Shown here: positions 29,387 to 49,732 of the stretch, one piece after another
Numbering within the stretch: position 1 is the first letter of the stretch
How the letters are laid out: each line of letters begins with the position of its first letter
Sequence record: LC788705.1
Source of the DNA: Escherichia coli phage NG_A1
Direction: 5' to 3' (one strand)
DNA length: 64,000 bases
Translations under genes and position numbers: made by a program
Notes under the pieces: model-generated
Databases searched by the model: none
What the model was told of the DNA's origin: nothing
The model's input: the letters and a program-made list of their open reading frames with translations, nothing else

Positions 29387-29885
29387 AACAATACTCCTGT
29401 GTTGGAAATAAAATAAGTTTTCTTTAGGACTATTCAGAAAGAATAGAACAACTGTTACTGTCAATTTCTCAACAAATTAATCGCAAATACTGAAGTGGGG
29501 TGGCAACTTCCACTTTCACGCTGCGCTGCTGCTTTGCTATATCGCACAAATCCTTGAGGATGGCCGCTAAGCCAGATTTGCTCACCTAATGCTTCATATA
29601 CTAGCTCATACTAGATGCAATATAACTTACAGAATCACGTCTCGGAGTTTTTCACTCCTCCCATCTCACTTCACAACCACCTCATACTAGGTTGCTTCGA
29701 GGCCTTACCAGGGTTCCTATGGGACGCAGATCGCTAAGTATTCTATTAACTATTTGTTTAAAAACTAACACGTAACAGTTAAAACAACCCTTAATGGGGC
29801 AGCCTAACTGTTCCGTATCGCGGATTGTAAACAAGAAAAATTAGCAAAATCAATTTTTACTAATGTCTCTCAATTCAATATAAAT

Positions 29886-29914
29886 ATTATATCAAGATTT
29901 TGGGCATCCTGCAA
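29886..29914 (-). promoter_or_regulatory. Promoter driving the long non-coding leader upstream of the origin-binding-protein gene
   Basis: Minus-strand TTGCAG-N17-TATAAT; about 480 nt of ORF-free transcript would precede the gene. Confidence 0.55.
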
Positions 29915-30005
29915 GTAAAATTTTCCGGATGGTGCTATCATTGGTCTTGAGTACGGATAAAACCGAGCCAAAATGACTCGGTAATCAGAGTTCAGCTAAT
30001 AAAAA

Positions 30006-30398
30006 TCATTCATCATTTAAGCCTGGAACATAAATCCCAACACGGTTTAATTGTTCTTTAGCTTCTTTGAGAATATCTGGAGTGTACTCCCAAATATCAT
30101 CTTCCACCTGTAAAAGATGGGGCGAACAACCATCATCCGACACACGACATATGGCCAAACCACGTGGGTGGAACAAAGAGAAATTTAGGGCAACAATTAA
30201 ACCCATAGCAGACAACTCATTCCAATCCAACTCCCATTCCCCCGCGTAGCCGGATAGGAAAACACCAACACAGGGATCATCTATTTGCTGCTCCGGAAAA
30301 GTGAAGGAGGCTTGTCTTACCCCCAACCAACGTTGCAGCAGCTTCTCCCCACGTTTCACCAAACTAGGATCAATCTGACGCCAATATACTTGTTCCAT
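30006..30398 (-). CDS. Hypothetical protein, tandem paralog A
   Basis: 130 aa; shares PC(V/I)G...W.EL..MGL..ALN..LF.P...PGL pattern with 30408-30836. Confidence 0.5.
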   Translation of the reverse strand: MEQVYWRQIDPSLVKRGEKLLQRWLGVRQASFTFPEQQIDDPCVGVFLSGYAGEWELDWNELSAMGLIVALNFSLFHPRGLAICRVSDDGCSPHLLQVEDDIWEYTPDILKEAKEQLNRVGIYVPGLNDE

Positions 30399-30407
30399 TC
30401 TGCCTCC

Positions 30408-30836
30408 TTAAGCAGTTAAACCTGGGATCATATACCCGAAACGTCGAAGTTTCTGAATCCCCTCATTTACTTCTTCCGGTGAGTAAGACCAACCATAACG
30501 TTCATTAACCTGAAAACCAGGAGATTCACTAGTTTTATAGTTAACAACAAGGCGATGCTTAGCAGGCATAAACAGCTTATAATTTAACGCAAAAACTAAG
30601 CCCATTTCGTCTAACTCTTTCCAGCCCACAATCTCTTCAAGACCCTCCTCTACCTGCACAATTAAACCAATACAGGGAGCCTCATCAATATCATCTTTAA
30701 AAGCAAAGGAGATTTCGTTATTCTCACACCATATTTTCAAAGAGTTAATAGCCTCATTATACAGGCTAGCTGGGAGAGTACGCCAAAAGTTAGCCAAAAT
30801 TGGGTTAGCTTTTTTAGAGAATACATTATTGAACAT
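30408..30836 (-). CDS. Hypothetical protein, tandem paralog B
   Basis: 142 aa; paralog of 30006-30398. Confidence 0.5.
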   Translation of the reverse strand: MFNNVFSKKANPILANFWRTLPASLYNEAINSLKIWCENNEISFAFKDDIDEAPCIGLIVQVEEGLEEIVGWKELDEMGLVFALNYKLFMPAKHRLVVNYKTSESPGFQVNERYGWSYSPEEVNEGIQKLRRFGYMIPGLTA

Positions 30837-30838
30837 AT

Positions 30839-31345
30839 TTACACCTTAAATTGTTGCAAGGATTTACACATTTCAAGATCTGGGCTAAATTCTAGCATAT
30901 AGCTAACAGCTTTTAAATCTTGAAGATTTATCCCAGTCCTACCATTGACTATAACCGTTGGATACTGGTACATCATAGCACCAGCGTCATCCAGAACACA
31001 CCAATGTTTGAGCTTATGCTTTTCAACGAAGCGAAGAACAGAATTACCCCTAGATAATCCACCCCCAGTAAAATCCGTTGTACCAAGAAAACGATCGATA
31101 AGACCTAATCCGGTCATAATCTGAACGTTCTCCATCTCATTCCTGACAGAGAACCATGAGGATACTCCAACAATCATTATCGGAGAAGGACGAATAAAGT
31201 CCTGAAAAGCCTTGAGAAGCGGTTTGAAAACCCAATCACTTCCAAAGAAAATCTTTTCGTCATCAGGTGCATGATGGTGGGAGATGCTCGAATTGAGCAC
31301 CCCATCAATATCTAGAAAAATAATTGGAGTATTACTTATTTCCAT
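30839..31345 (-). CDS. HAD-superfamily phosphatase-like protein
   Basis: N-terminal DxDGV motif (IIFLDIDGVLN) and later VLDDAG typical of HAD hydrolases. Confidence 0.6.
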   Translation of the reverse strand: MEISNTPIIFLDIDGVLNSSISHHHAPDDEKIFFGSDWVFKPLLKAFQDFIRPSPIMIVGVSSWFSVRNEMENVQIMTGLGLIDRFLGTTDFTGGGLSRGNSVLRFVEKHKLKHWCVLDDAGAMMYQYPTVIVNGRTGINLQDLKAVSYMLEFSPDLEMCKSLQQFKV

Positions 31346-31541
31346 TTTTGTTCCTTTCTAAGAACCTATCATACTCAACCGTATCAACATATATAACACC
31401 ATAGTCATCGGATTTATAGTCCATCTCCCACAGCTCACAGCGATAGCACCAACTACCATCCGCCCATACAAATATATCATCGGGGTGTGTATACACAGAT
31501 TTAACTATGGACATACCTGTTTCCCTTGCTTCTCGACACAT
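31332..31541 (-). CDS. Hypothetical small protein
   Basis: 69-aa ORF overlapping neighbours. Confidence 0.35.
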   Translation of the reverse strand: MCREARETGMSIVKSVYTHPDDIFVWADGSWCYRCELWEMDYKSDDYGVIYVDTVEYDRFLERNKNGNK

Positions 31542-32337
31542 AAGGTCTACCCTCTAAATGAGCTTCTACACGAGCAATAAAATCAGGATCACTAAAAGCA
31601 TCTACCGCACCTTTACTCCAGTAAGGGACACCACGTTCTTCCAGCTGGTACATCTCACTACGAGTCATACCTTGATAGCCCGGTTCCGCCGCGAGGGCAC
31701 TATCATAGTAGTTAACTACCATAAATTTCGCAGCAGTCCTATTAAGAACAGGAAATAATTCCCAGTAGAAGTTAATTACTTGGTTAGAGCAACCAACCAC
31801 AATGATCATATCTTGACTGGTAATACCATCAAAAACATTATACATTTCTGCGTATGCAGGAGCATGCTCTCCAAAGAAGATTACATTAGGTTTAACCCAT
31901 TTATAATCATCTGGATCAATAGAATTGTATCCTACATCAATAATCCGTTTATTGCTACTATTGTAGCTATCAGCTACAACAACCTCTTTTAAATATCCGT
32001 GAATATGCAGAATGTCACTATGTGGAACGCCAGCACGCTCAATAAGGTCATCAACGTTGGTAGTCAAGTTTACTACTTGACCTGGATATTGTTTATACCA
32101 TTCACCAATACGCAAATGCGCAAGATTGGGTTCAACAGTTTTTAGCTCTTCACGACGCTTGTTGTAAAACATATGGGTTTTATGATAAAAATTACCACGA
32201 AAGGCATGAATATTACATACTTCTTCTAGATCATAGTCATCCCACAATGCTTTACCACTAGCAGTATCAGTACGGAAGGCTCGTACACCACTTTCAACAC
32301 TCAAACCCGCACCACTAATAATAATTAATCTACGCAT
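31501..32337 (-). CDS. Sir2-family (sirtuin-like) NAD-dependent enzyme lacking the zinc ribbon
   Basis: Sirtuin motifs GAGxS...G...FR (ISGAGLSVESGVRAFR), TQN(I/V)D-like (LTTNVDDL), catalytic HG (ILHIHG); no CxxC...CxxC zinc module. Confidence 0.65.
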   Translation of the reverse strand: MRRLIIISGAGLSVESGVRAFRTDTASGKALWDDYDLEEVCNIHAFRGNFYHKTHMFYNKRREELKTVEPNLAHLRIGEWYKQYPGQVVNLTTNVDDLIERAGVPHSDILHIHGYLKEVVVADSYNSSNKRIIDVGYNSIDPDDYKWVKPNVIFFGEHAPAYAEMYNVFDGITSQDMIIVVGCSNQVINFYWELFPVLNRTAAKFMVVNYYDSALAAEPGYQGMTRSEMYQLEERGVPYWSKGAVDAFSDPDFIARVEAHLEGRPYVSRSKGNRYVHS

Positions 32338-32551
32338 TTTTCACCTGTTCTCTGAAGTTTTGCCCAATACTGTCTAATAGCTCAGCTAATTCTTTATTGC
32401 CTTTCTCCATTAAGGTATTAGCAATAACTTCTAGCATAGTAGCGCAGGATTCAACACCATCCTTATAGCCAGTTTCCCAGTGCTGCATTAATGCGTTTTC
32501 CAAAGCGGCGTTTAAACCCTTATCTGGTAGCATCGGCTTCGAGAATGCCAT
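32330..32551 (-). CDS. Hypothetical protein
   Basis: 73-aa ORF. Confidence 0.4.
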   Translation of the reverse strand: MAFSKPMLPDKGLNAALENALMQHWETGYKDGVESCATMLEVIANTLMEKGNKELAELLDSIGQNFREQVKNA

Positions 32552-32744
32552 AAAGTTTCTCCTCTAGTTCCATAACACGATTTTCATAAGAGGCACGCAA
32601 CTTTTCAATTGCCAGCGCACGCACTGTAACCTCATTAGAATTAATAGCTAACTGGGCCAGATCTTCTGTTTCCATACGTCCATTGTAAATTAAGCGATAT
32701 TTAAGATGTTTTACATTCTTAGTCATTATTAAACTCCACTGCAA
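32520..32744 (-). CDS. Hypothetical protein
   Basis: 74-aa ORF. Confidence 0.4.
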   Translation of the reverse strand: MQWSLIMTKNVKHLKYRLIYNGRMETEDLAQLAINSNEVTVRALAIEKLRASYENRVMELEEKLYGILEADATR

Positions 32745-33099
32745 CTGTTTCTAGGTCTTCATCAGAAAAATTAGAGTATACATCTTTAAGATATTGTTTA
32801 ATGCCTTCAGTAATATCTTCGTATCCCTCAGGACTACGTTGGTATACTTTTAGTACTCTATTATAAACAAATTCAATATCATACTTTATTTCACCCTCAT
32901 CCTCTTCAAACAAGCAATCTGAGTTATACGGTGATACATCTAGATTTGTTTCTACCCAATCACCAATAATTGATGAATATCCAATACCCTCTAGATGGGA
33001 ATAATCTCCAGTAGATGCAAAAATAGCTTCTCTAAGATCGTCTACGCCAAGATGGAAACCACCACATGTAGACTCAACTATATAGGGCTTTAATTCCAT
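32719..33099 (-). CDS. Hypothetical acidic protein
   Basis: 126-aa ORF downstream of promoter 33128-33156. Confidence 0.45.
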   Translation of the reverse strand: MELKPYIVESTCGGFHLGVDDLREAIFASTGDYSHLEGIGYSSIIGDWVETNLDVSPYNSDCLFEEDEGEIKYDIEFVYNRVLKVYQRSPEGYEDITEGIKQYLKDVYSNFSDEDLETVAVEFNND

Positions 33100-33127: not shown

Positions 33128-33156
33128 ATTATATATAAATTTTTGGCTGAAAGCAA
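33128..33156 (-). promoter_or_regulatory. Early promoter
   Basis: Minus-strand TTGCTT-N17-TATAAT; conserved AAATTTGAGAGGAG leader. Confidence 0.65.
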
Positions 33157-33198: not shown

Positions 33199-35046
33199 TT
33201 ATTTAGCTCGAATATCCTGATGTTTCACCCTGCCCATCACCTCGTGCTGTTTGCCAGGGTTAAATGGACGAGCACCCGGATTTCCAAGATACCCACAAAC
33301 TCGACGAGTTACTTCAAGAGTTTCGGGGTCATGATTACCACAGATAGGGCACTTAAATCCATCTTCGGATGCTATTGTTTCACCTAAGAATCCACATTTA
33401 CCACAAGAATCCACTGGAGTATTAATACCGAAGTAATGAACTTTACTAGCAGCATAATTAATAACCCATTCCAGTGCATCTGGGAATCGTTTCATATCTG
33501 GTAGTTCTACATAGGAAATGCACCCACCAGAAGCAATCGGAGTAAAATTAGATTCATAATCAAATTTCACATTGGGAGCAACTTTGCGTTCTACATCAAG
33601 GTGGTGCGAGTTAGTGTAGTATCCTTTAGACAGAATATCTTCATGCTCCGGGAAATATTCACGGTCTAGACGACAAAAACGATCACATAGGGATTCTGAT
33701 GGTGTAGCATACAGGCTATAACCTAACTTAGTTTCTTCCTTCTTCTGATCGACTCTATCCCGCATGTACTGCAATACACGCTGAACAAATTTGATGCAGG
33801 TCTCGGACATTGTGTCCACATCTTTGCCAAACATGAACTGTAGCATTTCATGGCAACCAATATACCCTAGAGATACAGAAGCACGGTTATAGAAATGATC
33901 AAATACATATTCATCAGGCTCCAAGCGTAACCCAAAGGCTCCTGACATATAGAGGATGGGTGCAGCTTTAGCTTGGATGTATTTTAAGCGATCAACTCTC
34001 CACTCCAATGCTTTTAACGCTGTATCCACACGTAGCTCAAGCAAATCAAAGAATAGATCAATATTTCCTTCAGCTTCGATAGCAATTCTAGGCAAGTTTA
34101 CAGAAACAACACCTAAGTTATTACGACCGGCAGTTTCACCATCTTCTGTAGCAGCTAGGAATGAACGGCAACCCATAGAAACTTTATAGTCTCCAGTAAC
34201 TTCCACAACCTTATCATAGCTGATATAATCTGGATACATACGTTCAGACGTACATTTCATAGCTAACTTCTTGATGTCATAATTAACATCTCCTGGTTTC
34301 ATATTTACGCCATCACGAAGTACAAATACCAGTTTCGGGAAGATAGCTGTACGTTTATTGATACCTAAACCATCCATGCGTACTTTCAGTATTGCTTTCT
34401 GTACTAGACGTGCTTCCCAAGAAGTTCCTAGACCAAAACCAAAGGTAATAAATGGACTCTGACCGTTAGAGTTGAACATCGTATTGATTTCATACTCTAG
34501 ACCCTGACAGGCATCATAGACTTCCTTTTCAGTCATCTCCGTAGCCATTACGGATGCTTTGGCTTCATCCTTAGTCCAACGTTTTGCAAACGCATGATTT
34601 TTGTCATATGATTTACGAACATAAGGGGCTAATACTTCATCAAGGCGGTCTACAGAAGTACCACCATACTGATGGGAGCTAACCTGAGTGATAATCTGAG
34701 CAGTAATAGCCGCCGCAGTAGTGATAGAGTTTGGAGTGCTAATTTCAGCATTACCAACCTTCATACCATTCTTCAACATATCTTCCAAAGCTACCAGACA
34801 ACAGTTAGTCATGCCTAATGCAGCATAATCAGCATCATGGAAATGAATATCCCCAATCATATGAGCATTTCGAATCTGGATTGGCATTTCTTCTAGAATT
34901 AGATACTTACTCAATTCACCTGCAAGCATATCCCTTTGTGTAGGGAAACGTTCTGAGGGTTTATTAGCATTATTAAACAGCAGCTCTTCATCTGCTGACC
35001 CTTCGATAATCTCTTTGCAGTTTCTAATCAATTCATCTTTGTTCAT
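33199..35046 (-). CDS. nrdD: Anaerobic ribonucleoside-triphosphate reductase (class III)
   Basis: 615 aa; C-terminal glycyl-radical motif RVCGYLG and Zn site (CGKCG...CPICG). Confidence 0.9.
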   Translation of the reverse strand: MNKDELIRNCKEIIEGSADEELLFNNANKPSERFPTQRDMLAGELSKYLILEEMPIQIRNAHMIGDIHFHDADYAALGMTNCCLVALEDMLKNGMKVGNAEISTPNSITTAAAITAQIITQVSSHQYGGTSVDRLDEVLAPYVRKSYDKNHAFAKRWTKDEAKASVMATEMTEKEVYDACQGLEYEINTMFNSNGQSPFITFGFGLGTSWEARLVQKAILKVRMDGLGINKRTAIFPKLVFVLRDGVNMKPGDVNYDIKKLAMKCTSERMYPDYISYDKVVEVTGDYKVSMGCRSFLAATEDGETAGRNNLGVVSVNLPRIAIEAEGNIDLFFDLLELRVDTALKALEWRVDRLKYIQAKAAPILYMSGAFGLRLEPDEYVFDHFYNRASVSLGYIGCHEMLQFMFGKDVDTMSETCIKFVQRVLQYMRDRVDQKKEETKLGYSLYATPSESLCDRFCRLDREYFPEHEDILSKGYYTNSHHLDVERKVAPNVKFDYESNFTPIASGGCISYVELPDMKRFPDALEWVINYAASKVHYFGINTPVDSCGKCGFLGETIASEDGFKCPICGNHDPETLEVTRRVCGYLGNPGARPFNPGKQHEVMGRVKHQDIRAK

Positions 35047-35704
35047 TAATTATTTCCTCAATAAACCTTGCTACTACTTCTGGCTCAATACTAAAAAATT
35101 CTGTAGCACCATCAAAATCTTTATATTGACAATTATATTCCTTAAACTGTAAATGGGTTTCTCTCTCAATATGCATAGCTTTTGATCTATCTGAAAAGCT
35201 ATACTCCTTAAATATTTTTAAATCATGTATGTTAGAGGAAGTTTTAATATCTCTGAGTCTATCTTTAGTTCTGCTAGACACACCTATTTTGGTTCCCACA
35301 TTACTTACTAAAATATATACGTTAGTAGGATAATTATCCTTCTCTAATAAACATATAGGACAACCAGAATTATGATTTCTAACACTATCAAGTGTAGACT
35401 CCCATTTATGATCATTCTCACAGCTGAACATGATTTTACTCTTGGAATTGATGTATTTACCTTCCATCTTTATTCCACGGGCAGCTAAAGATTCATTTAC
35501 TTCTTTAAGATCTAAAGTACGGCTAGCACAATAAGGGCAACCTCTACCACCTTTTACGTTATCTACTCTAGCTTCCCAACTATGCCCATTAGAGCACTTA
35601 AATATAGCCTTGGATTTAGCTGATATATACGTGCTTAGCATAACTATCCCTCTAGGAGCAAGTGCTAAGTTCACATCTTCTGTAGTTATTTTCTTTCTTA
35701 CCAT
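35033..35704 (-). CDS. Putative endonuclease with tandem zinc ribbons and GIY-YIG/T5orf172-like C-terminal domain
   Basis: Two CxxGHxW...CPxC zinc ribbons; C-terminal YILVSN...KIGVSSR...R pattern resembling GIY-YIG-related domain. Confidence 0.45.
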   Translation of the reverse strand: MVRKKITTEDVNLALAPRGIVMLSTYISAKSKAIFKCSNGHSWEARVDNVKGGRGCPYCASRTLDLKEVNESLAARGIKMEGKYINSKSKIMFSCENDHKWESTLDSVRNHNSGCPICLLEKDNYPTNVYILVSNVGTKIGVSSRTKDRLRDIKTSSNIHDLKIFKEYSFSDRSKAMHIERETHLQFKEYNCQYKDFDGATEFFSIEPEVVARFIEEIINEQR

Positions 35705-35955: not shown

Positions 35956-36031
35956 ATATTTGTAAGTTGATAAACAAGATCTCTTTGTTGATCCTCTGTT
36001 AGAAGCGAAGTACACTATAGGAGTGTTATTT

Positions 36032-36784
36032 ATGGGAAAAGCACGTCAAAAAAGAGAGAACCGTAATGGTTCAAGAAAGCGTGGCAACAAATATGAGAAT
36101 AACGTAATTCAGGCTGATTTTTCTAATGATTACGCTAACCCAGTTGCTAAATCCCTAGTAGGTAAAAACCGCGAGCAAAAATCATATATCAATATGATCA
36201 AGAACAACACAGTGACTGTGGGTATTGGTGAGCCGGGTACTGGTAAAACCTTTATCCCGTCTGTTCTTGCAGCTCAGGAACTCGTAGACATTCACTCAGA
36301 TATTGAGCAAGTGATTCTCGTACGTCCTAATGAACCTCTAGGTAAGTCTCTTGGTATGCTTCCTGGTGATCTAGCAGAAAAGCTAGAGCCTTGGTTGGAG
36401 CCAATAGCTGATGGTATGAAATGGGCCATCGGTGATCATGCCTATAAGGGATATGTCGAACGCCAGAAAATTAAATTTTTGGCTATAGAACATGCTCGTG
36501 GCAGAACTTTCAACAACTCCTATGTAATTGTCGATGAAGCTCAGAATATTTCCGTTGAGGCAATGGTTTGTCTCCTAACTCGTGTAGGACAAGACTGCCG
36601 TTTAATTATCTGCGGAGATATAGCTCAGAAAGACATTAAAGGTGACTCAGGTCTAGCACTTCTTATGGAAGTTTATGAGAAATATGAAAATGCTCCATTC
36701 TCAATGATCGAATTGATTGATAACGTTCGTTCTGCTGAGTCTAAAGCATTCTACGATATTTTTAAAGACATGGGGAAGGTGTAA
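36032..36784 (+). CDS. phoH: PhoH-like ATPase
   Basis: Walker A GEPGTGKTF, Walker B VIVDEAQN; TAGGAG RBS 8 nt upstream of ATG 36032. Confidence 0.85.
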   Translation: MGKARQKRENRNGSRKRGNKYENNVIQADFSNDYANPVAKSLVGKNREQKSYINMIKNNTVTVGIGEPGTGKTFIPSVLAAQELVDIHSDIEQVILVRPNEPLGKSLGMLPGDLAEKLEPWLEPIADGMKWAIGDHAYKGYVERQKIKFLAIEHARGRTFNNSYVIVDEAQNISVEAMVCLLTRVGQDCRLIICGDIAQKDIKGDSGLALLMEVYEKYENAPFSMIELIDNVRSAESKAFYDIFKDMGKV

Positions 36785-48720: not shown

Positions 48721-49732
48721 ATATTCATAAATTAGAGAACAGCGAGCCGATTACGCTGAACTTGTCTTAATGTAAGATGCGTCGAGCACTAAGATTCGTT
48801 GAATAGAGTCGGTGGGTTAGTTGTAAAACTAGTACACAGGGGGCGGCAATCCCGGTTAGTGGCTAGAACGTGTAAAATGAGGCGTCTGAAACCTCTCCCC
48901 TAAACTCTTCTCTAATTTATAAATAGTGGGGTGTGGAAATCACTTATGTAGTAACACTGCCGTCCTAGTATAATTGGTATTATCAAGCCGTAACTGGTGG
49001 AAGATGTAGGTTCGAATCCTACGGTCGGTAAGAACTGGATAACTGATGCTTTTAATGTAAAAGCTTCCGAGGTTAGTTGCGCACTGCCTAAACCACGCGG
49101 TAGTTGGTTCCAGACTAACCAACCAGTCTGCTGAATAGTTTTATTACGATTTAACTATGTCCAGGCTAAAGAAGAACTTTAGAAGGTATTCTAGGATAGT
49201 GAAGTTCTTTCTCCATATCGGAGTAGTTTTTCAAGCTATCCACAAAGTGGGAAATGCTGACATGAGAGATGTCACTAATGGTGCACAATAGCACAGGTAA
49301 TTCGCGATAACTCCTGTTGAGTAGCAGCAAAAGGTGGGAAGTCATGACCCCAAGCCTAACCGAGTCCTCAATATACCGCAGGACATAACTACTAAGTCAC
49401 CCTGACTTAAACTGGAAAATAATAGACGTTACTGTATTTTGTCTTGAAATACTTAATGAGTGAGACTTATGACTCTCCCGGTATCGTCTGTATTTTTAAG
49501 AGTTTTTACGAGAGTTCTTAAAAATACTTAAACGGGGTGTAGTCTAAGGGAGAGGCAGGAGTCTTCTAAATTCCTTTATGCAGGTTCGAATCCCTTGTCA
49601 CGCACCAAATTTGATGGTCAGAGTAAATTAAACCTACTATCTCGGTTGAGCTGTTTTAATGGGTTCGAATCCCAGCGAGGCGTAACTGCCTGGTGTGATA
49701 GAGGCATCATTCCACTAACATTGGAAAAACTA

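What the first reader, a model, noticed from the sequence alone, without database searches (positions are those of the whole stretch)
30006..32337. Cluster of a zinc-less Sir2-like enzyme, HAD-like phosphatase and two tandem paralogs of unknown function
The Sir2-family protein (31501-32337) keeps the NAD-pocket motifs and catalytic His but lacks the CxxC...CxxC zinc ribbon of classical deacetylases, an architecture shared with NAD-cleaving Sir2 domains of bacterial defence systems. It is co-oriented and nearly contiguous with a small ORF, a HAD-fold phosphatase and two diverged paralogs ending in PGL. One hypothesis is a phage module acting on NAD or ADP-ribose metabolism, for instance to counter NAD-depleting abortive-infection systems; this is speculative and rests on motif reading only.
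Basis: inference. Interest (0 to 1): 0.6.

Follow-up and report, generated by a model that had tools for sequence, protein, structure and literature searches.

The report
T5-phage zinc-less sirtuin and phosphatase operon
This is the well-conserved early operon of T5-like phages that encodes a CobB/SIRT5-type sirtuin without zinc cysteines next to a small phosphatase; the pairing was already described and predicted, but never shown, to repair cut RNA ends, so the find is real but not new.

Summary
Window 30006-32337 (minus strand) carries a Sir2 protein (Pfam 8e-25), a small conserved ORF, a cap-less HAD phosphatase (HAD_SAK_2, 4e-20) and two DUF7415 paralogs (31% identical, E 2e-20). They lie in one early operon of a Tequintavirus that is 99% identical to phage EC148.

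The missing zinc cysteines are a trait of the whole phage clade. This sirtuin does not resemble defence NADases. Its nearest sequence and structural relatives are E. coli CobB, Sir2Af1 and SIRT5. It keeps the catalytic His, the FGE loop and the class III Y-x-x-R anion pocket. It has no PADLOC hit.

Iyer et al. 2022 already described this sirtuin-plus-HAD neighbourhood and predicted Tpt1/KptA-like removal of RNA 2'-phosphates. I confirmed the supporting contexts. Orthologs at 57-66% identity sit in RNA ligase/cREC/kinase operons, and more distant ones in Nudix/cREC/PIN-PhoH operons.

New here:
- The HAD-Sir2 adjacency survives a gene-order inversion in distant T5-like phages.
- The Sir2 allele appears to have been swapped between phage groups.
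- DUF7415 modules associate with deoxynucleotide enzymes rather than with NAD.

I found no support for the anti-NAD-depletion idea. The function remains untested.

The parts
33128..33156 (-). Early promoter of the operon (-35 TTGCTT, 17-nt spacer, -10 TATAAT); equivalent of promoter T5P31 of phage T5
   Evidence: Sequence read. 91% identical to the T5 region annotated as promoter T5P31. It lies just after the nrdD terminator hairpin at 33191-33167. The -35 matches only 3 of 6, so the consensus scan missed it.
32719..33099 (-). First gene of the operon, 126 aa, unknown function (T5 ORF094 homolog)
   Evidence: ORF; phrog_11748 1.9e-69. A homolog sits directly upstream of Sir2 in Erwinia phage KEY (E 2e-12).
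32520..32744 (-). Small gene (about 68-74 aa), unknown function (T5 ORF095 homolog)
   Evidence: phrog_5236 1e-45; 86-90% identical in Epseptimavirus and T5.
32330..32551 (-). Small gene, 73 aa, unknown function; variable (no match in the T5 locus L007, 34% identical in Epseptimavirus)
   Evidence: phrog_5827 7e-31.
31501..32337 (-). Phage-clade sirtuin (Sir2/CobB-like, class III signature, no zinc cysteines), 278 aa
   Evidence: PF02146 8.2e-25; phrog_2162 8e-122; CobB 1s5p 2e-17 by sequence; AF2 pLDDT 89.8; Foldseek CobB 9e-18, TM 0.84 on the target; invariant G9-A10-G11, S13, S16, R22, Y58, R61, N94, D96, H113, F154, F155, E157, S184, N209.
31332..31514 (-). Small conserved protein (about 60 aa, motif W-x-D/N-G-x-W-C-Y-R). 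It overlaps both neighbours and is always immediately 3' of Sir2 in the four T5-like lineages that have it.
   Evidence: phrog_5116 1.6e-29; annotated with this start in EC148; homologs directly after Sir2 in Epseptimavirus, Sugarlandvirus and contig L015. Only one Cys is conserved, so it does not supply a zinc ribbon in trans.
30839..31345 (-). Cap-less HAD-superfamily phosphatase of the HAD_SAK_2 family, 168 aa
   Evidence: PF18143 4e-20, 73 bits against a cut-off of 27.5. Motifs FLDIDGVLN, VSSW, GGGLxRG and (V/I)DD(A/G)G are conserved in the KEY and L015 homologs (E about 1e-29). No solved relative by sequence.
30408..30836 (-). DUF7415 paralog A, 142 aa, made of two DUF7415 modules
30006..30398 (-). 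DUF7415 paralog B, 130 aa, made of two DUF7415 modules
   Evidence: PF24187 2.2e-29; halves 1.4e-14 and 1.7e-13; 31% identical to paralog A, E 2e-20.
29957..29982 (-). Hairpin (9-bp stem accgagtca/tggctcggt, loop ttt) followed by TTTAT; likely intrinsic terminator closing the operon
   Evidence: Sequence read. The T5 record annotates a rho-independent terminator at the equivalent place. The T-run is too short for the consensus scan.

Best explanation
The region is one early operon of a T5-like phage (Tequintavirus). Its enzymatic core is a phage-specific sirtuin of the CobB/SIRT5 type, with the zinc cysteines lost across the whole clade, plus a cap-less HAD phosphatase.

Most likely reading: the two enzymes heal RNA ends left by host ribonucleases.
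- The sirtuin uses NAD+ as Tpt1/KptA does. An RNA 2'-phosphate oxygen, held by the Y58/R61 anion pocket, attacks C1'' of NAD+ and nicotinamide leaves.
- The ADP-ribose 2''-OH, activated by His113, then attacks the phosphate. This frees RNA 2'-OH and ADP-ribose 1'',2''-cyclic phosphate.
- The HAD enzyme removes a terminal 3'/2' phosphate from RNA, or dephosphorylates the ADP-ribose-phosphate by-product.
- No ligase or kinase gene was found in the window. Sealing would therefore rely on host enzymes, or on repair of tRNA 3' ends that needs no ligase.

The two DUF7415 proteins (four modules) and the small W-C-Y-R protein are accessory. The DUF7415 module looks like a small adaptor or ligand-binding unit of phage deoxynucleotide metabolism, not part of the NAD chemistry.

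Shown: gene content, family membership, active-site conservation, operon structure and contexts in other phages.
Inferred: the RNA substrate, the reaction, the role of the HAD enzyme and the role of DUF7415.
For: 1. Orthologs in RNA-repair operons.
   - Sir2 proteins 57-66% identical to this one lie inside healing-and-sealing operons in rV5-like and Mydovirus phages: RNA_lig_T4_1 8e-15, cREC_REC 2e-13 and 4e-17, AAA_33 kinase 5e-11, Metallophos.
   - In jumbo Asteriusvirus the order is Sir2-Nudix-cREC-x-PIN/PhoH.
   - A ligase, a kinase and a cyclic-phosphate-processing domain without a 2'-phosphotransferase is the yeast Trl1 logic, which needs a Tpt1-like step (established knowledge).
2. The HAD here belongs to the family that Pfam defines from RNA-repair 'Swiss Army Knife' proteins.
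3. Sir2-HAD adjacency is kept although gene order is inverted (HAD-x-Sir2) in Erwinia phage KEY and contig L015, where DUF7415 is absent.
4. Tequintavirus Sir2 is closer to the Mydovirus and Erwinia KEY proteins (66%) than to sister-genus Epseptimavirus (53-55%), while flanking genes are 90-98% identical. The alleles therefore seem interchangeable between RNA-ligase-linked and HAD-linked contexts.
5. The invariant Y-x-x-R pair, which binds an acyl carboxylate in CobB/SIRT5, could hold a phosphate (inference). Sirtuin and Tpt1 chemistry share the same two steps (established knowledge).
6. Iyer et al. 2022 (PMC9503650, section 3.7.3) made the same prediction for this neighbourhood, typified by the T5-like phage SP15.
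7. tRNA-targeting immunity acts on T5 (Burman et al. 2024, PMC11464382). The window carries 8 tRNA genes.
Against: - There is no biochemical or genetic test in the held literature.
- The T5-like operon has no RNA ligase, polynucleotide kinase, cREC or 2H gene. No homolog of the rV5/Mydovirus repair genes is in the 64-kb window. The T5 stretch I inspected (28-76 kb of the record) annotates none.
- Every active-site feature is also exactly what a protein lysine deacylase needs, including the FGE substrate-stapling loop.
- Sir2 in Phapecoctavirus and in Vibrio phage nt-1 has no recognisable RNA-repair neighbour.
- Adjacency within Demerecviridae is partly inherited synteny.
- The HAD gene is missing in the Sugarlandvirus and Slocum-like lineages, which keep Sir2.
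Confidence: 0.4

Rival explanations
1. The sirtuin is simply a phage CobB: an NAD-dependent protein lysine deacylase (deacetylase or desuccinylase). It strips acyl marks from host or phage proteins early in infection, for example metabolic, transcription or nucleotide-synthesis enzymes. The HAD phosphatase and the DUF7415 proteins would be unrelated nucleotide-metabolism genes that share the operon.
For: - The best sequence and structure matches are CobB, Sir2Af1/2 and SIRT5.
- All deacylase determinants are invariant: catalytic His113, N94/D96, the FGE loop, and the class III Y58/R61 pair that recognises succinyl/malonyl groups in CobB and SIRT5.
- NCBIfam CobB subfamily models match at 1e-25 to 6e-29, though below their cut-offs.
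- The operon lies among nucleotide-metabolism genes: nrdD, phoH, nrdAB, thy, frd.
- Skliros et al. 2016 argued this for the zinc-less Vibrio phage homolog (PMC5107563).
Against: - It does not explain why orthologs are embedded in RNA ligase/cREC/kinase or Nudix/cREC/PIN-PhoH operons.
- It does not explain why the HAD_SAK_2 gene stays adjacent after a gene-order inversion.
- The V-Y-P substrate strand of CobB is V-I-N/D here.
- The host already has CobB.
Confidence: 0.28
2. The genes have no joint function. The operon is a mosaic of independently useful early genes, and the apparent cluster is inherited synteny in the T5 nucleotide-metabolism/replication region. The DUF7415 proteins and the HAD enzyme serve deoxynucleotide supply (the HAD as a nucleotidase). 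The sirtuin does something separate.
For: - Operon membership varies between T5-like lineages: HAD absent in Sugarlandvirus and Slocum-like phages, DUF7415 absent in KEY and L015, one or two DUF7415 copies, orf73 variable.
- Divergence is very uneven. Against Epseptimavirus: Sir2 53%, HAD 90%, DUF7415 71-73%.
- DUF7415 is fused to thymidylate kinase and to MazZ-like dNTP pyrophosphohydrolase.
- In T4-like phages it lies between nrdD and nrdG, with no Sir2 gene among the genes annotated within 5 kb on either side.
Against: - The genes are tightly packed with overlapping or near-abutting reading frames between one promoter and one terminator.
- Sir2-HAD adjacency survives rearrangement.
- The HAD family is defined from RNA-repair proteins.
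Confidence: 0.17
3. One reading: the module acts on NAD or ADP-ribose pools or signals to counter NAD-depleting or ADP-ribose-signalling defence systems (Thoeris, DSR, SIR2-HerA and similar).
For: - The sirtuin certainly binds NAD (motifs).
- A phosphatase could in principle destroy phosphorylated ADP-ribose signals or toxic ADPR-1''-phosphate.
- The gene is early.
- The apparent Sir2 allele swapping could reflect an arms race.
- T5 depends on NAD through its NAD-dependent DNA ligase.
Against: - A sirtuin consumes NAD rather than restoring it.
- No NAD-salvage, Macro, NADAR or Nudix gene is in the operon.
- There is no PADLOC match and no likeness to defence Sir2 NADases.
- I found no report of an anti-defence role.
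Confidence: 0.07

Closest known systems
Phage sirtuin-centred RNA-repair neighbourhoods, type 3 (sirtuin + 'Swiss-army-knife-like' HAD phosphatase, typified by Escherichia phage SP15); Iyer, Burroughs, Anantharaman & Aravind 2022, Viruses 14:1977
   Same: It is the same gene pair in the same phage group. SP15 carries the same DUF7415 protein at 90% identity. The Sir2 is PF02146 and the HAD is PF18143.
   Different: Nothing essential differs; this window is another instance. In the passages I read, that paper does not mention the DUF7415 pair, the small W-C-Y-R protein, the inverted HAD-Sir2 order in other T5-like phages or the Sir2 allele replacement. The predicted activity has not been tested.
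E. coli CobB and class III sirtuins (SIRT5, Sir2Af1)
   Same: - Fold: Foldseek E 9e-18, TM 0.84 on CobB.
- The NAD-pocket motifs, catalytic His, FGE loop and Y-x-x-R anion pocket are all present.
   Different: - All four zinc cysteines are missing, although the beta module is kept.
- TQNID is TTNVD and GTS is GCS.
- The V-Y-P strand is V-I-N.
- There is an extra helical C-terminal extension of about 60 residues.
- NCBIfam CobB equivalog scores are far below the cut-offs: 90 bits against 320.
Tpt1/KptA RNA 2'-phosphotransferase
   Same: The proposed reaction is the same: NAD-dependent transfer of an RNA 2'-phosphate to ADP-ribose. The genomic logic is also the same, pairing with ligase/kinase/cyclic-phosphodiesterase-type genes in rV5-like phages.
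   Different: The fold is unrelated (sirtuin Rossmann fold, not the Tpt1/KptA fold). This is a functional analogy only, and it is untested.
Defence-associated SIR2 NADases (ThsA, DSR1/2, SIR2-HerA, SPARSA)
   Same: They share the Sir2 superfamily fold and the absence of the classical zinc ribbon.
   Different: - No PADLOC hit.
- None among the 50 best structural matches listed.
- The phage protein keeps the substrate-stapling FGE loop and the Y-x-x-R pair.
- It is a stand-alone enzyme with no sensor or partner domains, encoded by a lytic phage.
Zinc-less Sir2/CobB of KVP40-like Vibrio phages (Skliros et al. 2016, Front Microbiol 7:1807)
   Same: It belongs to the same phage sirtuin clade (36-42% identity). 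The absence of a zinc site was already noted there, and T5 was listed as carrying a homolog.
   Different: The neighbourhood differs, and that paper proposed activation of acetyl-CoA synthetase by deacetylation.

Membership tests
Sirtuin / Sir2 family (PF02146) | Profile match above the curated threshold | tested here: met
   88.2 bits against a cut-off of 24, covering profile positions 1-178 of 180.
Sirtuin / Sir2 family (PF02146) | NAD-pocket motifs (GAGxSxxSGIPxFR; N and D of TQNxD) and the catalytic His | tested here: met
   G9, A10, G11, S13, S16, G17, F21, R22, N94, D96 and H113 are invariant in 62 relatives. The Gln of TQNID is Thr in all of them.
Sirtuin / Sir2 family (PF02146) | Cys4 zinc-binding module | tested here: not met
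   Residues 114-152 have no Cys. Relatives have at most 1-2 Cys there. The AF2 model keeps a three-stranded module at that place.
Class III sirtuins (CobB/SIRT5 type) | Y-x-x-R pair lining the acyl pocket (CobB Y92/R95) | tested here: met
   Y58 and R61 align with CobB Y92 and R95. The numbering offset was checked against the mutant names A76G, I131C and Y92A of PDB entries 6rxq and 6rxs. Both residues are invariant.
Class III sirtuins (CobB/SIRT5 type) | Protein lysine deacylase activity | not testable with these tools
   This needs an enzyme assay.
Defence-associated SIR2 NADases (Thoeris ThsA, DSR, SIR2-HerA, pAgo-SIR2) | Match to defence-system profiles, closest structural relatives among defence SIR2 proteins, and linked sensor or partner gene | tested here: not met
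   No PADLOC family at E up to 0.1. The 50 best Foldseek PDB hits listed are all deacylases. No TIR, SLOG, HerA, Argonaute or similar partner is in the operon.
HAD superfamily, HAD_SAK_2 (PF18143) | Profile match above threshold and the four HAD motifs (DxD nucleophile, S/T, K/R, acidic pair) | tested here: met
   73 bits against 27.5. FLDIDGV, VSSW, GGGLSRG and VLDDAG are conserved in the KEY and L015 homologs. No cap insertion is evident in a 168-aa protein (sequence reading).
Phage sirtuin RNA-repair neighbourhood (Iyer et al. 2022) | Sirtuin of the phage clade adjacent to an RNA-end-processing gene | tested here: met
   The Sir2 belongs to phrog_2162 and is 57-66% identical to the rV5 and Mydovirus proteins. 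The HAD_SAK_2 gene is one small ORF away.
Phage sirtuin RNA-repair neighbourhood (Iyer et al. 2022) | Complete healing-and-sealing set (ligase, kinase, cyclic phosphodiesterase) | tested here: not met
   No homolog of the rV5/Mydovirus Rnl1, cREC, kinase or Metallophos proteins is in the 64-kb window at E up to 1.
Tpt1/KptA-like RNA 2'-phosphotransferase activity | NAD-dependent removal of RNA 2'-phosphate | not testable with these tools
   Inference from context only.
Phage NAD-reconstitution / anti-NAD-depletion modules | NAD-synthesis or ADPR-processing enzymes (NadV, NMNAT, Adps/Namat, Macro, NADAR, Nudix) in the module | tested here: not met
   None of the eight operon proteins matches such families in Pfam or PHROGs.
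DUF7415 (PF24187) | Profile match above threshold | tested here: met
   122 and 102 bits against a cut-off of 27. Each half of each paralog scores 51-71 bits on its own.

The most novel reading that the evidence does not exclude
The phage sirtuin is the first sirtuin-fold enzyme that acts on RNA. It would be a convergent replacement of Tpt1/KptA, using the class III anion pocket to take an RNA 2'-phosphate instead of an acyl-lysine. In T5 it would work with a cap-less HAD phosphatase as a ligase-independent tRNA-end healing pair against host anticodon or acceptor-end nucleases. The DUF7415 modules would be a new adaptor that tethers enzymes to the phage deoxynucleotide-synthesis machinery.
Probability: 0.3. 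Interest if true: 0.7.

Novelty: already known. Interest (0 to 1): 0.33.

Why it matters
T5 is a classic model phage, and about a thousand sequenced phages carry this sirtuin. No activity has been shown for any of them.

If the enzyme removes RNA 2'-phosphates, the chemistry of the sirtuin fold would extend from proteins to RNA. It would also reveal a widespread phage counter-measure to RNA-cleaving immunity. If it is a plain deacylase, it would show that phages reprogramme the host acylome.

Either result is reachable with simple assays, because the competing hypotheses make distinct and testable predictions. The window itself adds no new kind of system.

Tried and rejected
- **Defence-like Sir2.** Rejected on PADLOC and on the sequence and structure neighbours.
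- **Small ORF supplying the missing zinc ribbon in trans.** Rejected. CxxC occurs in this phage only, and a single Cys is conserved across homologs.
- **Internal duplication of the DUF7415 proteins.** My own half-against-half profile tests were negative (hhalign probability 19%, hmmsearch E above 0.1). Each half does match the full Pfam model significantly, so I accept two modules per protein on Pfam's broader profile only.
- **DUF7415 near the HAD homologs of T4-like Aeromonas and Proteus phages.** The T5 record names Aeh1 ORF298c and ORF302c as homologs. I found none within 6 kb in the two loci fetched. Phage Aeh1 itself was not fetched.
- **DUF7275/DUF7277 protein near Sir2 in Phapecoctavirus and nt-1 as a hidden RNA ligase.** It has no similarity to Rnl1 or to any solved structure.
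- **RNA ligase, kinase or cREC homologs in the window.** None found.
- **Literature on any tested function of a T5-like Sir2, or on DUF7415.** None found.
- **Burroughs & Aravind 2016 paper on RNA repair.** It could not be retrieved.
Full report
**Source of the window.** The flagged DNA is 99.1% identical over 2.7 kb to Escherichia phage EC148 (Demerecviridae, Tequintavirus). It matches 446 phage records. Phage T5 itself has the same genes. Its record annotates them as one early unit: promoter T5P31, ORF094, ORF095, 'cobB', an Aeh1ORF302c-like protein, ORF098, an Aeh1ORF298c-like protein, then a terminator.

**The observation.** All five ORFs are present on the minus strand at the given coordinates. 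Their Pfam assignments are:

| ORF | Family | E-value |
|---|---|---|
| 31501-32337 | SIR2 | 8.2e-25 |
| 30839-31345 | HAD_SAK_2 | 4e-20 |
| 30408-30836 | DUF7415 | 1e-35 |
| 30006-30398 | DUF7415 | 2.2e-29 |

- The small ORF belongs to phrog_5116. It most likely starts at 31514, giving 60 aa.
- The two DUF7415 proteins are true paralogs: 31% identity, E 2e-20. A conserved PGL lies two to three residues before each C-terminus.
- Reading frames overlap or nearly abut throughout.
- The unit is bounded upstream by the nrdD terminator hairpin (33191-33167) and a T5P31-equivalent promoter (33156-33128).
- It is bounded downstream by a 9-bp hairpin at 29982-29962.
- Three further small ORFs (32330-33099) belong to the same unit.

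**The sirtuin.**
- In an alignment of 62 relatives, the NAD-pocket residues, N94/D96, the catalytic H113, the FFGE loop and S184/N209 are invariant.
- The module between H113 and the FGE loop has no cysteine here and never more than two in any relative. Loss of the zinc site is therefore a clade-wide trait. It was already reported for the Vibrio phage homologs, in a paper that also lists T5 as a carrier (PMC5107563).
- An AlphaFold model (pLDDT 89.8) keeps a three-stranded module at that place.
- By sequence the nearest solved proteins are E. coli CobB (2e-17), Sir2Af1/2 and SIRT5.
- By structure, the 50 best matches listed are all deacylase sirtuins, led by CobB (E 9e-18).
- There is no PADLOC hit.
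- The class III Y-x-x-R pair (CobB Y92/R95) corresponds to invariant Y58/R61.

**Distribution and context.**
- tblastn finds the protein in 1007 phage records. These include T5-like phages, rV5-like phages, Mydovirus, Phapecoctavirus, KVP40-like Vibrio phages and jumbo phages.
- In rV5-like and Mydovirus genomes, the ortholog (57-66% identity) directly follows genes for a T4 Rnl1-type RNA ligase, a cREC cyclic-phosphate-processing domain and a P-loop kinase. A calcineurin-like phosphoesterase lies nearby.
- In a jumbo Asteriusvirus the order is Sir2, Nudix, cREC, one ORF, PIN-PhoH.
- These are the neighbourhoods published by Iyer et al. 2022. They also list a third type, sirtuin plus 'Swiss-army-knife-like' HAD phosphatase in phages typified by SP15, and propose a KptA-like removal of RNA 2'-phosphates (PMC9503650). 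SP15 is a T5-like phage carrying the same DUF7415 protein.
- The core of the finding is therefore already described, as a computational prediction. I found no experimental test.

**What my analysis adds.**

1. *Operon membership varies, with Sir2 as the constant*:

| Lineage | Gene order |
|---|---|
| Tequintavirus, Epseptimavirus | Sir2 - small ORF(s) - HAD - DUF7415 - DUF7415 (Epseptimavirus Sepoy has a second small ORF after the first) |
| Sugarlandvirus | Sir2 - small - DUF7415 - DUF7415 (no HAD) |
| Slocum-like contig | Sir2 - DUF7415 (one copy, no HAD) |
| Erwinia phage KEY, contig L015 | HAD - x - Sir2 - short ORF (no DUF7415) |

Sir2-HAD adjacency thus survives a change of gene order. 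That is better evidence of a functional link than inherited synteny. The short ORF after Sir2 in L015 is homologous to the small W-C-Y-R protein; the one in KEY is not.

2. *Divergence inside the operon is very uneven.* Identity of the window's proteins to Epseptimavirus:

| Gene | Identity |
|---|---|
| NrdD | 98% |
| Origin-binding protein | 90.5% |
| HAD | 90% |
| DUF7415 paralogs | 71-73% |
| Sir2 | 53% |

The same Sir2 is 66% identical to the Mydovirus and Erwinia KEY proteins. This points to replacement of the Sir2 allele across phage groups. It suggests that ligase-linked and HAD-linked sirtuins are interchangeable. The neighbour-joining tree has no bootstrap support, so this is an indication and not a proof.

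3. *A phoH gene lies divergently beside the operon region in the T5-like lineages examined, and a PIN-PhoH follows the jumbo-phage set*. In T5, Epseptimavirus, Sugarlandvirus and L015, nrdD lies between phoH and the operon.

**DUF7415.**
- Each half of each paralog matches the whole 53-position Pfam profile, so the cluster holds four modules. My own half-against-half tests were negative.
- An exhaustive profile search found 153 cluster representatives, mostly small proteins.
- The informative fusions are to thymidylate kinase, to a MazZ-like dATP/dGTP pyrophosphohydrolase (two representatives) and to an ASCH/DUF3850 domain.
- In T4-like Klebsiella and Morganella phages, a DUF7415-like ORF lies between nrdD and nrdG.
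- The domain thus tracks deoxynucleotide enzymes, not NAD enzymes. Its link to Sir2 is confined to T5-like phages.

**Mechanism.** I rank the hypotheses as follows.

- *RNA-end healing, 0.40.* Ortholog contexts, the HAD family and the preserved adjacency favour it. Sirtuin and Tpt1 chemistries share the same two steps: an oxyanion attacks C1'' of NAD+, then the ADP-ribose 2''-OH attacks the acyl or phosphoryl centre. An anion pocket is already in place. Against it, T5-like phages have no ligase, kinase or cyclic phosphodiesterase in the window, and the active site is indistinguishable from that of a lysine deacylase.
- *Plain CobB-like deacylase, 0.28.*
- *No joint function, with the HAD and DUF7415 serving nucleotide supply, 0.17.*

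**Verdict.** The defence-like reading and the counter-defence hypothesis are not supported. The cluster is a known, widely sequenced and previously analysed feature of T5-like phages whose biochemical function is still open.

Noticed in passing
window 31501-32337 compared with loci L005, L004, L014: The Sir2 gene is far more diverged between Tequintavirus and Epseptimavirus (53%) than its neighbours are (HAD 90%, NrdD 98%, origin-binding protein 90.5%). It is closer to the Mydovirus and Erwinia KEY alleles (66%). This suggests in-place allele replacement between unrelated phage groups.
   Followed up: partly
proteins P0206, P0272, P0278, P0304; loci L011 4980-5213 and L012 4953-5348: The DUF7415 module is fused to thymidylate kinase, to MazZ-like dATP/dGTP pyrophosphohydrolase and to ASCH/DUF3850. 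In T4-like Klebsiella and Morganella phages it sits between nrdD and nrdG. This links it to deoxynucleotide metabolism.
   Followed up: partly
window 35033-35704 (minus strand): A 223-aa ORF with repeated Cys-pair segments lies between nrdD and phoH and is not annotated in EC148. The ORF at the corresponding position in contig L015 carries T5orf172/MUG113 hits, but its homology to the window ORF was not tested. It may be a homing-endonuclease-like insert.
   Followed up: no
window 29465-29957: About 490 bases without an annotated gene lie between the operon terminator and the origin-binding-protein gene. The stretch contains an extended -10-like TGATATAAT at about 29894-29886 (promoter T5P32 in the T5 record). 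The function of the long leader is unknown.
   Followed up: no
window 48959-49030 and 49532-49607: The two tRNA finders disagree. Rfam reports a tRNA at 48959-49030 (35.5 bits) that ARAGORN does not list. ARAGORN reports tRNA-Arg(tct) at 49532-49607, which does not reach Rfam's gathering score.
   Followed up: no
L003 4820-5761 and L009 5843-6604: A DUF7277+DUF7275 protein lies 2-3 kb upstream of Sir2 in both Phapecoctavirus ESCO5 and Vibrio phage nt-1, two unrelated phage groups. It has no similarity to RNA ligase or to any solved structure.
   Followed up: partly
L004 583-3130: Mydovirus KPP-1 carries nicotinamide phosphoribosyltransferase and ribose-phosphate pyrophosphokinase genes about 5 kb upstream of its RNA ligase-cREC-kinase-Sir2 operon. 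An NAD-salvage capacity thus sits near an NAD-consuming enzyme.
   Followed up: no
window 36023-36784 (plus strand); L014, L015, L016, L017: A phoH-like gene lies divergently beside the Sir2 operon region in T5-like lineages, with nrdD in between in several of them. A PIN-PhoH gene closes the Sir2-Nudix-cREC set in a jumbo phage. This Sir2-PhoH proximity recurs and is not explained. The window ORF was not itself profiled; its identity is inferred from the EC148 annotation.
   Followed up: partly
GenBank annotations seen: Annotation transfer errors are common in this cluster. The HAD is often labelled 'Sir2 (NAD-dependent deacetylase)' via phrog_18062. The DUF7415 proteins are labelled 'exonuclease', 'tail tube protein' or 'tail protein'.
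   Followed up: no
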